Shown: positions 3,483 through 3,600 of the stretch, one piece after another
Position numbering within the stretch: the stretch's first letter is position 1
Layout: each line of letters starts with the position of its first letter
DNA from: a virus
Direction: 5' to 3' (one strand)
Length of the DNA: 64,000 bases
IMG/VR virus record: IMGVR_UViG_3300045988_175595
Location: 101,597-165,596 of that record
The notes under the pieces: model-generated
What the model was told of the DNA's origin: nothing
Database searches by the model: none
What the model saw: only the letters and a program-made list of their open reading frames with translations
Program-made: the position numbers and the translations under genes

Positions 3483-3600
3483 AATTCTAGACTCTTTTTG
3501 TTCAACCTCTAGTTTATCAGACTAGTGCTCTCTACTTGAGCTATTTCTCCTATGATATGGTGGAAAAAGAATTTTTTTGCTGAAAGAGTCTATATATAAT
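3483..3600 (-). ncRNA. Second tRNA-derived permuted module or pseudo-tRNA: 5' half resembling tRNA-Ile(GAT) but no T-arm, preceded by tttttcc-ACCA
   Basis: The minus read is ...ttctttttcc-acca-tatcata-ggagaaa-ta-gctcaagtagagagc-a-ctagt-ctgataa-actag-aggttgaac.... No TTCGAAT T-loop is present. It is flanked by the inverted repeat agactcttt (3489-3498) / aaagagtct (3582-3590). Confidence 0.3.

What the first reader, a model, noticed from the sequence alone, without database searches (positions are those of the whole stretch)
3483..3600. Second permuted tRNA-derived module: 3'-acceptor-like tttttcc-ACCA followed by an intact 5' half (acceptor, D-arm, Ile-GAT-type anticodon arm) with no T-arm
The 5' half is a near-perfect tRNA-Ile(GAT) front end: ggagaaa-ta-gctcaagtagagagc-a-ctagt-ctgataa-actag. 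The expected TTCGAAT T-arm is absent. An acceptor-complementary tttttcc followed by ACCA lies upstream rather than downstream. The element is flanked by the inverted repeat agactcttt/aaagagtct. It could be a second Y-RNA-like decoy (possibly a YrlB analogue), a tRNA pseudogene, or a substrate for processing or splicing by the adjacent RtcB.
Basis: seen in the sequence. Interest (0 to 1): 0.55.

Follow-up and report, generated by a model that had tools for sequence, protein, structure and literature searches.

The report
T-armless tRNA mimic in phage Y-like RNA
This 105-base stretch most likely encodes a small non-coding RNA that belongs to a widespread, apparently undescribed family of phage RNAs sitting next to a Ro60-like protein gene, and it displays three arms of an isoleucine tRNA, including a perfect anticodon loop, where other members display other tRNA pieces.

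Summary
On the minus strand (3592..3488), a 10-bp terminal stem encloses a 7-bp acceptor-like hairpin with ACCA in its loop, a D arm, and an anticodon arm with the tRNA-Ile loop CUGAUAA. There is no T arm. ARAGORN calls no tRNA, and the Rfam tRNA model gives only a truncated 28.9-bit match (threshold 29).

The flanking inverted repeat is the signature of a family: (U/A)AGRC-stem, then ACAGCAA, a variable insert, then GYCU(A/U)-G. The window holds about 15 copies, all in the tRNA block. 68 of 80 phage loci encoding homologues of the neighbouring DUF2828 protein carry it: 197 copies on the gene strand, none opposite, mostly upstream. The AlphaFold model of that protein matches Ro60/TROVE structures.

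Inserts often carry tRNA pieces:
- a lone anticodon stem-loop;
- D + anticodon + T arms;
- a YrlA-like T + acceptor + D;
- a complete permuted tRNA ("class B": 13 sequences, 21 of 33 pairs compensatory, usually CUGAUAA).

The window copy is collinear with class B but lacks the T arm, and I found no second example.

Best reading: a Y-RNA-like partner of a Ro-like protein that displays a tRNA-Ile mimic, possibly as bait or decoy. Function is inferred. A decayed tandem-tRNA junction is not excluded.

The parts
3583..3592 (-). Terminal (closing) stem, 5' arm: UAGACUCUUU
   Evidence: Perfect 10-bp complement to 3488-3497. It starts with the family signature UAGAC.
3577..3582 (-). Family motif CAGCAA, directly after the 5' arm
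   Evidence: This hexamer was the search anchor for all 95 non-redundant family members. The A before it is present in 81 of 95; here that position is U.
3562..3568 (-). Acceptor-stem 3' strand: UUUUUCC
   Evidence: Pairs with GGAGAAA at 3544-3550 (7 bp, one G-U) in the minimum-energy fold and in the descriptor hit.
3551..3561 (-). Loop closing the acceptor hairpin: ACCA (3561-3558) followed by UAUCAUA
   Evidence: Read from the sequence. It looks like discriminator A + CCA + a 7-nt spacer. It is not conserved in class B relatives.
3544..3550 (-). Acceptor-stem 5' strand: GGAGAAA
3527..3541 (-). D arm: GCUC-AAGUAGA-GAGC. The loop lacks the G18-G19 pair.
   Evidence: Aligned to the D arm by the Rfam tRNA model and present in the fold.
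3509..3525 (-). Anticodon arm: CUAGU-CUGAUAA-ACUAG, with a tRNA-Ile(GAU)-type loop (3520-3514)
   Evidence: The same loop occurs in class B relatives L046 and L048, in L080 as a 6-nt loop, and in class C relatives L153, L156 and L196.
3498..3508 (-). Linker AGGUUGAACAA between the anticodon arm and the 3' arm of the terminal stem
   Evidence: Read from the sequence. GUUG can pair with CAGC of the motif in the minimum-energy fold.
3488..3497 (-). Terminal stem, 3' arm: AAAGAGUCUA, followed by the conserved G at 3487
   Evidence: The 3' flanking G is present in 90 of 95 members.
1536..3092 (-). Gene for a 518-aa DUF2828/DUF7788 protein with a Ro60-like fold, the presumed protein partner
   Evidence: Pfam DUF2828 + DUF7788 + VWA. 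AlphaFold model pLDDT 81.7. The top 8 Foldseek PDB hits are all Ro60/TROVE over the full length.
968..1082 (-). Family member with a YrlA-like insert (T arm, acceptor hairpin, D arm)
   Evidence: Rfam YrlA 36.4 bits, below the threshold of 69. Same stem-ACAGCAA frame.
1443..1507 (-). Short family member with a single anticodon-stem-loop mimic: AUCGA-CUUUUAA-UCGAU (Lys UUU type)
836..929 (-). Family member
   Evidence: This copy gave the weak Dicty_Class_I_RNA match.
709..818 (-). Atypical family member (motif CAGCAU, 3' flank A) with T arm, acceptor hairpin and D arm
1152..1417 (-). Two family members: 1300-1152 and 1417-1364
3111..3184 (-). Family member immediately upstream of the DUF2828 start codon (7-bp stem UAGACAG/CUGUCUA)
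   Evidence: Read.
3706..4445 (-). Four family members between tRNA genes: 3851-3706, 4056-3990, 4351-4256 and 4445-4355
5289..5822 (-). Two family members with 7-bp stems: 5357-5289 and 5822-5731
   Evidence: Read.
6880..6949 (-). Family member

Best explanation
The locus encodes a non-coding RNA of about 105 nt. It is probably cut out of the polycistronic tRNA/ncRNA transcript that runs on the minus strand.

It belongs to a family I call stem-ACAGCAA RNAs. Each member has a terminal helix that starts (U/A)AGRC, then the single-stranded motif (Y)ACAGCAA after the 5' arm, then a variable insert, then the 3' arm ending GYCU(A/U) followed by G.

By analogy with Ro60 and its Y RNAs, the terminal helix plus motif is the handle for the adjacent Ro60-fold protein (DUF2828, 1536-3092), and the insert is the working module.

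In this copy the insert is a three-armed tRNA mimic: an acceptor hairpin, a D arm, and an anticodon arm with the canonical tRNA-Ile(GAU) loop. The terminal helix stands where the T arm would be.

The most likely job is to present a tRNA-Ile-like anticodon stem-loop and acceptor end on a Ro-like particle. That could be bait or decoy for a factor that binds or cuts tRNA anticodon loops, or a tether that brings such a factor to the Ro-like protein.

**Shown here:** the structure, the family, its strand-specific and polar linkage to the Ro-fold gene, and selection on the structure of the complete permuted relatives.

**Inferred:** transcription and processing, protein binding, and the bait/decoy role.
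For: **1. The structure is present and stable.**

**2. The frame is a family signature.**
- The window has about 15 copies, all on the minus strand within 709-6949 and none elsewhere in 64 kb.
- 68 of 80 IMG/VR loci around DUF2828 homologues (41-59% identity, GC 25-51%) carry it. There are 197 copies on the gene strand and 0 on the other. 132 of 140 lie upstream, and 34 lie within 500 nt of the start codon.
- The variable stem positions and the outermost pair change together between copies (U..A 44, A..U 46, G..C 5).
- The family is also present in cultured phages: E. coli Felixounavirus REP12, Listeria LMTA-34 and Bacillus Tsamsa. One Tsamsa copy has its own TTGACA-17-TATAAT promoter-like site ending 8 nt before the stem.

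**3. The neighbouring protein is Ro60-like.** The top 8 full-length Foldseek PDB hits are all Ro60/TROVE: 9kop E = 1.5e-7, 2nvo 2.1e-5, 1yvr 2.7e-5. Some GenBank records already annotate homologues as "Ro-like RNA binding protein".

**4. Inserts are tRNA pieces far more often than chance.**
- 23 of 95 members hold a 5-bp stem with a CU-NNN-A-[A/C] loop, against 0.25 +/- 0.48 in shuffles.
- 37 of 95 match a T-loop-type sequence pattern.

**5. Complete permuted relatives are under selection.** Class B has the order T arm, acceptor hairpin, D arm, anticodon arm. Across 13 distinct sequences, 99.8% of cells are paired, 21 of 33 pairs have compensatory changes, and the covariation score is 0.645 against 0.22 shuffled and at most 0.14 slid. 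The window copy is collinear with them apart from the missing hairpin and T arm.

**6. The scaffold is intact around the tRNA piece.** The two arms of the terminal stem match perfectly over 10 bp although arms differ between copies. All 16 internal pairs are standard. The D loop has lost G18-G19, the partners of the absent T loop.

**7. The loop differs from the phage's own tRNA.** The phage's real tRNA-Ile(GAU) (5539-5615) has loop CUGAUAC, while the mimic keeps the canonical CUGAUAA.
Against: - **No second example.** I found no other T-armless acceptor + D + anticodon module. The searches covered 80 DUF2828 loci, IMG/VR, JGI metagenomes, GenBank phages, and the closest syntenic relatives L003, L088, L086, L089 and L090. 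The only other copy, L002, is identical. So there is no direct evidence of selection on this copy.
- **No T arm means no L-shape.** Without a T arm the RNA cannot form the tRNA elbow that YrlA mimics.
- **No experimental data.** There is no expression or protein-binding data.
- **The motif is slightly off.** It reads UCAGCAA here, and the predicted fold partly pairs it with GUUG.
- **CUGAUAA recurrence is partly biased.** Two of the searches that found relatives required that loop.
- **The decoy role is analogy only.**
Confidence: 0.6

Rival explanations
1. This is an evolutionary relic with no function of its own. A tandem duplication of a tRNA-Ile-like gene, followed by deletions, left the junction (3' acceptor strand, ACCA, spacer, 5' two-thirds of the next copy) stranded inside the loop of a stem-ACAGCAA element.
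For: - ACCA plus a 7-nt spacer looks like a junction between tandem tRNA genes. The same array has tandem tRNA-Asn genes 6 nt apart (6089-6163 and 6170-6244).
- Tandem tRNA junctions elsewhere score as weak hits to the permuted model.
- The module is a singleton.
- The syntenic relative L088 has, after tRNA-His, an unpermuted but degenerate tRNA-like sequence instead.
- The D loop is degenerate.
Against: - All three hairpins are perfectly paired in a 25% GC genome.
- The 10-bp terminal stem and the motif are intact.
- tRNA pieces are the normal cargo of this family, and the complete permuted version is under selection elsewhere.
- An origin by tandem duplication is compatible with present function.
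Confidence: 0.25
2. This is a genuine permuted or split tRNA-Ile gene. RNase P and 3' trimming open the acceptor loop to give G1 and ACCA-3'. The terminal stem holds the two pieces together, or RtcB ligates them. The product is charged and used in translation.
For: - It has a 7-bp acceptor stem, discriminator A + CCA encoded at the right place, U8, a GAU anticodon with A37 and A38, and a U12-A23-type D stem.
- M. smegmatis YrlA is cut by RNase P in its acceptor loop and receives CCA (PMC4201824).
- RtcB lies 3.7 kb away.
Against: - There is no T arm anywhere in the element, so there is no elbow for RNase P, EF-Tu or the ribosome.
- The phage already has a standard tRNA-Ile(GAU).
- The termini form a plain helix, not a bulge-helix-bulge splice site.
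- RtcB linkage is not conserved.
- The closest structured relatives carry the Y-like scaffold, which a tRNA would not need.
Confidence: 0.05
3. The repeats act at the DNA level, as promoter/terminator cassettes, recombination sites or miniature mobile elements. The tRNA-like fold is incidental.
For: - The family is repeated and intergenic.
- Some 5' arms read TAGACA and score as -35-like boxes.
- The family lies among tRNA genes, where recombination is frequent.
Against: - Strand asymmetry is absolute: 197 copies on the gene strand against 0.
- The arms change together between copies while the loops vary from 35 to 230 nt.
- The inserts are enriched about 90-fold for anticodon-type hairpins.
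- Compensatory changes occur in every helix of class B.
- Promoter-like sites in this region are not more frequent than in shuffles (36 against 41).
Confidence: 0.05

Closest known systems
YrlA / bacterial Y RNAs bound by Ro60 (Rsr) (Rfam RF02553; Chen et al. 2014, PMC4201824)
   Same: - It is a small RNA encoded on the same strand next to a Ro60-fold protein gene.
- A terminal stem is formed by the 5' and 3' ends, with a short conserved motif beside its 5' arm.
- The variable module is a permuted tRNA mimic whose acceptor stem is closed by a loop.
- There are several paralogues per genome.
- A YrlA-like copy on the same scaffold lies in this window (1082-968).
   Different: - The protein is DUF2828, not a Pfam TROVE family member, and it matches Ro60 only by fold.
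- The motif is ACAGCAA, not GNCGAA(N)G.
- This copy has an anticodon arm and no T arm, whereas YrlA has a T arm and no anticodon arm.
- There is no YrlA model hit on the element.
Class B permuted tRNA-like members of the same family (defined here; L046, L048, L057, L080, L093, L095, L104, L107 and others)
   Same: - It has the same scaffold and the same order: acceptor hairpin, UA/UG, D arm, anticodon arm.
- It has the same CUGAUAA loop in most members.
   Different: - Class B has a small hairpin and a canonical T arm (GGUUCRAWUCC) upstream of the acceptor hairpin.
- Class B has G18-G19 in the D loop and a 3-6-nt acceptor loop.
- The window copy has only 14 nt where class B has the hairpin and T arm, a GG-less D loop and an 11-nt loop with ACCA.
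- The class B model does not detect the window copy.
Circularly permuted tRNA genes of Cyanidioschyzon merolae and other algae (own knowledge)
   Same: The 3' acceptor strand lies upstream of the 5' acceptor strand. An origin by tandem duplication is plausible.
   Different: Those genes encode all four arms and have bulge-helix-bulge termini for splicing-type circularisation. Here there is no T arm and the terminal helix is plain.
Dictyostelium Class I RNAs (Rfam RF01414; Kjellin et al. 2021, PMC7919456)
   Same: The architecture matches the short family members: about 60 nt, a terminal stem joining the ends, a conserved motif directly after the 5' arm that ends ...ACAGCAA, and a variable remainder.
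   Different: - They are eukaryotic and thought to be unique to dictyostelids.
- The model scores here are only 17-23 bits against a threshold of 41.5.
- The stem sequences differ.
- No link to a Ro-like protein is known.

Membership tests
tRNA (Rfam RF00005 / ARAGORN) | Cloverleaf with all four arms, including a T arm with a GTTCRANYC-type loop | tested here: not met
   ARAGORN makes no call. The Rfam alignment is 3'-truncated with no T arm. The sequence after the anticodon arm is AGGUUGAACAA, then the terminal stem.
tRNA (Rfam RF00005 / ARAGORN) | Score at or above the curated threshold (29 bits) | tested here: not met
   23.8 bits in the 11-kb scan. 28.9 bits as a truncated match on the element alone.
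YrlA (Rfam RF02553) | Covariance-model score of at least 69 bits | tested here: not met
   No YrlA match on 3478-3624 even at E <= 10. The neighbouring copy at 960-1069 reaches 36.4 bits.
YrlA (Rfam RF02553) | T arm and D arm flanking an acceptor-like hairpin, with the Y stem in the anticodon position | tested here: not met
   The D arm and acceptor hairpin are present. The T arm is absent and the anticodon arm is present, so the terminal stem sits in the T-arm position.
YrlA (Rfam RF02553) | GNCGAA(N)G motif near the 5' end (Chen et al. 2014) | tested here: not met
   The sequence after the 5' arm is CAGCAAAAAAAUUC. There is no GNCGAA.
YrlA (Rfam RF02553) | Encoded within a few kb of a Ro60 orthologue and on the same strand | tested here: inconclusive
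   It lies 396 nt upstream of a Ro60-fold protein on the same strand. That protein is DUF2828, not a TROVE-family orthologue by sequence.
Stem-ACAGCAA RNAs linked to DUF2828 (family defined here) | Terminal helix of at least 7 bp starting (U/A)AGRC and ending GYCU(A/U), with G as the next base | tested here: met
   UAGACUCUUU / AAAGAGUCUA + G, 10 bp.
Stem-ACAGCAA RNAs linked to DUF2828 (family defined here) | CAGCAA within 0-3 nt of the 5' arm | tested here: met
   It follows the arm directly at 3582-3577. The usual preceding A is replaced by the last U of the arm.
Stem-ACAGCAA RNAs linked to DUF2828 (family defined here) | Same strand as a DUF2828 gene and within about 8 kb, usually upstream | tested here: met
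   It lies 396 nt upstream of the gene's start codon at 3092, on the same strand.
Stem-ACAGCAA RNAs linked to DUF2828 (family defined here) | Transcribed as a discrete RNA that binds the DUF2828 protein | not testable with these tools
   No expression or binding data are available.
Permuted tRNA genes (C. merolae type) | 3' half upstream of 5' half, together encoding a complete tRNA | tested here: not met
   Only the acceptor 3' strand + ACCA lies upstream. No T arm is encoded anywhere in 3488-3592.
Permuted tRNA genes (C. merolae type) | Bulge-helix-bulge motif formed by the precursor termini | tested here: not met
   The termini form a continuous 10-bp helix. The optional CAGC/GUUG extension leaves a one-sided 5-nt bulge.
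Dictyostelium Class I RNA (Rfam RF01414) | Covariance-model score of at least 41.5 bits, with the 11-nt motif CCUUACAGCAA after the 5' stem arm | tested here: not met
   There is no hit on this element. Other family members score 17-23 bits.

The most novel reading that the evidence does not exclude
The stem-ACAGCAA RNAs are the Y RNAs of a second, very widespread Ro60-like protein family (DUF2828). That family is present in at least 711 GenBank phage records, including Felix O1-like, Listeria P100-like and Bacillus Tsamsa-like phages.

Their cargo is a programmable display of tRNA parts: anticodon stem-loops of Lys, Asn, Tyr, Ile, Phe, Ser, Gly, Arg and Leu types, or whole permuted tRNAs. These would serve as decoys or sensors for host anticodon nucleases and other tRNA-directed defences.

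On this reading the window copy, with a 7-bp acceptor stem, an encoded ACCA and a 7-nt leader, is opened by RNase P into a two-piece, T-armless tRNA-Ile mimic.

A further stretch: Dictyostelium Class I RNAs, which share the terminal stem + ...ACAGCAA architecture and the roughly 60-nt size, would be eukaryotic relatives of the same RNA class.
Probability: 0.2. Interest if true: 0.85.

Novelty: new variant of a known kind. Interest (0 to 1): 0.62.

Why it matters
Ro60 and its Y RNAs are a conserved RNA quality-control system whose bacterial and phage roles are still unclear. The known bacterial Y RNAs (YrlA) were found only next to proteins annotated as TROVE.

This finding points to a second and larger set of candidates:
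- a Ro-fold protein family that sequence searches do not connect to Ro60;
- its own RNA scaffold and motif;
- several RNA paralogues per phage;
- cargo made of tRNA parts in every arrangement, of which this T-armless copy is the rarest.

If the RNAs bind the protein and act on tRNA-directed host factors, that would be a new phage counter-defence principle: RNA decoys on a Ro-like platform. It would sit alongside phage tRNA arrays and RNA-repair enzymes.

The family occurs in tractable phages of E. coli, Salmonella, Listeria and Bacillus, so the idea is directly testable.

Tried and rejected
**Searches for a second copy of the module**
- An exact 42-mer of the module in IMG/VR gave no match.
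- blastn of the module and its surroundings against GenBank phages gave only tRNA-Lys and an insignificant tRNA-Ile hit.
- Close-relative searches with the DUF2828 protein found one IMG/VR locus, none in GTDB genomes, and Logan/ENA contigs of homologues at 60-65% identity. The scaffold family is present in them, but not this module.
- Pattern scans for AGAC-N5-CAGCAA ... TRGC ... CTGATAA in IMG/VR and JGI metagenomes found class B, a new class C and chance hits in coding DNA. They found no second T-armless copy.

**Model-based tests**
- A covariance model built from a class B member does not detect the window copy. Many of its weak hits turned out to be junctions of tandem tRNA genes, which is where the tandem-junction rival came from.
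- MAFFT alignments of class B were structurally wrong in the acceptor and 3' regions, so I replaced them with model-guided alignments.

**Protein and context tests**
- A sequence profile of DUF2828 against PDB sequences found no Ro60. Only the fold comparison did.
- RtcB linkage was tested and rejected as a conserved feature.
- The sigma-70 promoter scan shows no enrichment and no promoter specific to the module.

**Literature**
- Searches for DUF2828, ACAGCAA, and phage Y RNA or decoys found no description of this RNA family.
- I could not obtain the paper that identified the Class I RNA-binding proteins.
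Full report
**1. What is in the sequence**

The feature lies on the minus strand between tRNA-His (3699-3625) and tRNA-Lys (3477-3401). Read 5' to 3', it is:

UAGACUCUUU (3592-3583) - CAGCAA (3582-3577) - AAAAAUUC - UUUUUCC (3568-3562) - ACCA (3561-3558) - UAUCAUA - GGAGAAA (3550-3544) - UA - GCUC AAGUAGA GAGC (3541-3527) - A - CUAGU CUGAUAA ACUAG (3525-3509) - AGGUUGAACAA - AAAGAGUCUA (3497-3488) - G.

The energy is -28.4 kcal/mol, z = -3.09, and 1 of 200 shuffles folds as well.
- ARAGORN calls nothing here.
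- The Rfam tRNA model scores 23.8 bits in a wide scan. On the element alone it scores 28.9 bits against a threshold of 29. That alignment is 3'-truncated: it matches the acceptor 5' strand, D arm, anticodon arm and the start of the variable region, and has no T arm.

The inverted repeat is 10 bp rather than 9.

**2. The inverted repeat is a family signature**

The same frame recurs through the tRNA block: a stem starting (U/A)AGRC, then (Y)ACAGCAA directly after the 5' arm, an insert of 35-230 nt, and a complementary arm ending GYCU(A/U) followed by G.

- An automatic census found 11 copies with stems of 8-10 bp, all on the minus strand between 836 and 6949. None occur in the remaining 57 kb or on the plus strand.
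- Reading the sequence adds four more copies with 7-bp stems: 5822-5731, 5357-5289, 3184-3111 and 818-709.
- The variable stem positions differ from copy to copy but always match within a copy.
- The window's YrlA-like RNA (Rfam YrlA 36.4 bits, below threshold) sits in this same frame at 1082-968.

**3. The neighbouring protein has a Ro60 fold**

- The 518-aa protein at 1536-3092 (minus strand) matches Pfam DUF2828 + DUF7788 with a weak VWA signal.
- A sequence profile finds no Ro60 among PDB sequences.
- The AlphaFold model (pLDDT 81.7, pTM 0.74) has Ro60/TROVE structures as its eight best full-length Foldseek hits: 9kop at 1.5e-7, D. radiodurans Rsr 2nvo at 2.1e-5, Xenopus Ro 1yvr at 2.7e-5, and others. 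Isolated vWA domains follow.
- Homologues occur in 711 GenBank phage records. A few are already annotated as "Ro-like RNA binding protein".

**4. The RNA family travels with that gene**

I fetched 80 IMG/VR loci around DUF2828 homologues (41-59% identity to the window protein, GC 25-51%).

- 68 of the 80 carry at least one element on the gene strand. There are 197 elements in all, and none on the opposite strand under the same criteria.
- 132 of the 140 elements that can be placed lie upstream of the gene, and 34 lie within 500 nt of the start codon.
- Among 95 non-redundant copies, the outermost pair changes in concert: U..A 44, A..U 46, G..C 5.
- Lengths are bimodal, at 51-72 nt and 84-127 nt.
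- The family is present in cultured phages:
  - E. coli Felixounavirus REP12 has four copies inside the tRNA array.
  - Listeria phage LMTA-34 has three copies just upstream of the gene.
  - Bacillus phage Tsamsa has three copies. One is preceded by TTGACA-17-TATAAT ending 8 nt before the stem.
- No Rfam 15 family covers these elements. The only matches are sub-threshold hits to Dictyostelium Class I RNA.
- Literature searches found no description of the family.
- Chen et al. 2014 searched only genomes with TROVE-annotated proteins (PMC4201824).

**5. What the inserts carry**

- 37 of 95 elements match a T-loop-type sequence pattern.
- 23 of 95 contain a 5-bp stem with a CU-NNN-A-[A/C] loop, against 0.25 +/- 0.48 in 500 shuffles with a maximum of 2.
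- With a looser loop rule that also catches T arms, the count is 43 of 95 against 3.0 +/- 1.8.

Several architectures appear:

| Class | Insert | Position of the terminal stem |
|---|---|---|
| Short | One anticodon-type stem-loop (loops CUUUUAA, CUGUUAA, CUGUAAA, CUUGAAA and others) or one D-arm-like hairpin | - |
| Class C | D arm, anticodon arm, T arm in natural order | Acceptor position |
| Class A | YrlA-like: T arm, acceptor hairpin, D arm | Anticodon position |
| Class B | Small hairpin, T arm, acceptor hairpin, D arm, anticodon arm (a complete circularly permuted tRNA) | Variable-loop position |

The window holds a second anticodon-loop mimic of Lys UUU type at 1507-1443.

**6. Class B is a real, selected structure**

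A covariance model built from one class B member, combined with a pattern scan of IMG/VR, gave 13 distinct sequences in about six lineages.

- 99.8% of cells form standard pairs.
- 21 of 33 pairs show changes on both sides, including all seven acceptor pairs.
- The covariation score is 0.645. Shuffles give 0.22 (0 of 500 reach the observed value) and slid controls give at most 0.14.
- In the unbiased descriptor search, the anticodon-type loop is CUGAUAA in L046, L048 and the window, and CUUAAAA in L057. L080 has a 6-nt CUGAUA loop.

**7. How the window copy relates to class B**

It is collinear with class B (acceptor hairpin, UA, D arm, A, anticodon arm with CUGAUAA, linker), but it differs in four ways:

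- It has only 14 nt (CAGCAAAAAAAUUC) where class B has the small hairpin and T arm.
- Its D loop has no GG.
- Its acceptor loop is 11 nt and begins ACCA, against 3-6 nt elsewhere (ACUG, ACUA, ACUUA, ACA, ACCUUA, GUGU and others).
- The class B model does not detect it.

I found no second example, as follows:

- The 80 DUF2828 loci gave none.
- Two pattern scans tolerant of stem variation gave none (IMG/VR; JGI metagenomes).
- GenBank phages gave none.
- The closest relatives gave none (L003, L088, L086, L089, L090).
- L002 is an independent but identical assembly.

The syntenic relative L088 (RtcB, tRNAs, DUF2828) has, after tRNA-His, an unpermuted and degenerate tRNA-like sequence instead.

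**8. Interpretation**

The best-supported reading is that this is one of the Y-RNA-like partners of the Ro-fold protein, and that its cargo is a three-armed tRNA-Ile mimic.

Arguments that it is more than debris:
- The two arms of the terminal stem are perfectly complementary although arms differ between copies. So the scaffold around the tRNA piece is a single intact element.
- All 16 internal base pairs are standard in a 25% GC genome.
- The one canonical feature that has decayed, G18-G19, is the one that lost its partner when the T loop went.
- tRNA parts are the normal cargo of the family.

The function is inferred. The recurrent, canonical anticodon loops suggest bait or decoy for factors that recognise tRNA anticodon loops, or a tether to such factors, on a Ro-like platform. 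The phage's own tRNA-Ile(GAU) has loop CUGAUAC, whereas the mimic keeps CUGAUAA. That fits a decoy but proves nothing.

The 7-bp acceptor stem with encoded ACCA and a 7-nt spacer recalls M. smegmatis YrlA, which RNase P cuts in its acceptor loop (PMC4201824). This is untested here.

**9. Rivals**

- **Relic of a tandem tRNA junction.** The ACCA-spacer arrangement, the tandem tRNA-Asn genes 6 nt apart in the same array, and the singleton status all favour this. I give it about 0.25. It may also describe the origin of a now-functional RNA.
- **True permuted or split tRNA.** This is unlikely because there is no T arm, a normal tRNA-Ile gene is present, and there is no splice-type motif.
- **DNA-level repeat.** This is contradicted by the absolute strand bias, the compensatory changes and the tRNA-type cargo.
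- **Link to RtcB.** RtcB (7261-8382) lies within the fetched flanks of only 1 of 85 related loci, plus Listeria LMTA-34. A specific link to RtcB is not supported.

**10. Transcription context**

A strong promoter-like site (TTGACA-17-TATACT, 7228-7200) precedes the array. A terminator-like hairpin (611-580) follows tRNA-Cys. Nothing specific flanks the module, and promoter-like sites are not enriched over shuffles. The RNA would therefore be released by processing. tRNA-Lys starts 10 nt after its 3' arm.

**11. Verdict**

It is Y-RNA-like and tRNA-derived. It is not a YrlA or YrlB family member, and the RtcB link is unsupported.
- The copy itself is a new variant: the terminal stem replaces the T arm.
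- The larger point is the RNA family linked to DUF2828, which appears to be undescribed.

Noticed in passing
window 836-929 (-); L237 5671-5726; L010 7559-7622: Short stem-ACAGCAA elements are the only sequences here that hit the Rfam Dictyostelium Class I RNA model (17-23 bits, threshold 41.5). Class I RNAs share the architecture: about 60 nt, a terminal stem, a motif ending ...ACAGCAA right after the 5' arm, and a variable remainder. They are thought to be unique to dictyostelids and their function is unknown.
   Followed up: partly
window 1443-1507 (-): A short family member carries a perfect tRNA-Lys(UUU)-type anticodon stem-loop, AUCGA-CUUUUAA-UCGAU. Similar lone anticodon-loop mimics (GUU, GUA, UGA, GAA and others) occur in short members of other phages.
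   Followed up: partly
window ~5830-6090 (-); L003 ~60-330: An intergenic stretch of about 250 nt is conserved between this phage and a relative at 65% protein identity (blocks such as ACCAATAATAGTCGGT, TTTTAATGATAATCTTTTT, TTATTAGGATTG.AACCTTTCTGGTAAATAAA). It has no Rfam match and may be another structured RNA.
   Followed up: no
window ~5625-5725 (-); L088 ~4730-4830: An intergenic stretch of about 100 nt is conserved with L088 (...CTAGCTTT.ACG...ATGCAAG...GTGCT.ATCTTAAATAAATGAGTTAAATGTCCA.GG.TACAGC...). It has no Rfam match.
   Followed up: no
window 4665-4745 (-); L003 655-735: An odd tRNA-like sequence with a CAU anticodon loop (GCGGATGGGAGGTATAGTATCTCGCTAGTCTCATAAGCTAG...) and a non-canonical T arm is conserved in L003. 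ARAGORN does not call it and the Rfam tRNA model gives only 20 bits.
   Followed up: no
window 4848-4915, 4773-4831, 5090-5181 (-): Further tRNA-like genes that ARAGORN misses: Rfam tRNA 39.2 bits (above threshold), 28.9 bits, and a tRNA-Sec-model hit of 39.6 bits (below threshold) with loop CUUGAAA and a long extra arm.
   Followed up: no
window ~4945-5080; L003 ~530-650; L088 ~4930-5040: A conserved module CCCACCGTAAG ... CTCCTTTCG ... ATCGGTGG occurs in three related phages. On the opposite (+) strand it reads as a Shine-Dalgarno site plus a very short ORF, followed by a long-range hairpin. It may be a small antisense gene or a toxin-like cassette inside the tRNA array.
   Followed up: no
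window 3212-3355 (-): A 47-aa ORF lies between tRNA-Lys and the DUF2828 gene. It aligns at both ends with the 69-70-aa YonK-like proteins found just upstream of DUF2828 in C. perfringens-related elements. It may be a conserved small partner protein.
   Followed up: partly
window 10182-11907 (-): An IS607-type pair (serine recombinase 11437-11907 and a TnpB-like OrfB 10293-11465) is followed by a RAGATH-18 RNA (10182-10246, 69 bits). This is a mobile element inside the phage genome.
   Followed up: no
L088 5846-5935: At the syntenic position (after tRNA-His, before DUF2828), the closest syntenic relative has an unpermuted tRNA-like sequence. It has a 7-bp acceptor stem + UCCA, a GG-less D loop, an odd T loop (UGUGAAU) and a 20-nt anticodon loop containing CUAGUGAUAAA.
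   Followed up: partly
L237 4476-5027 and 1989-2087; L083 1758-1959, 7459-7573, 7714-7828: Listeria phage LMTA-34 has a ROOL-like RNA (88.5 bits, just below threshold) and a drum RNA in the same tRNA/DUF2828 region. L083 has a HEARO RNA and two 115-nt tRNA hits that may contain introns.
   Followed up: no
L125 8026-8123 (-): This family member has a T arm, acceptor hairpin and D arm. The sequence ACUGAUAAAA is present but single-stranded, with no anticodon stem. So the CUGAUAA motif may matter on its own.
   Followed up: no
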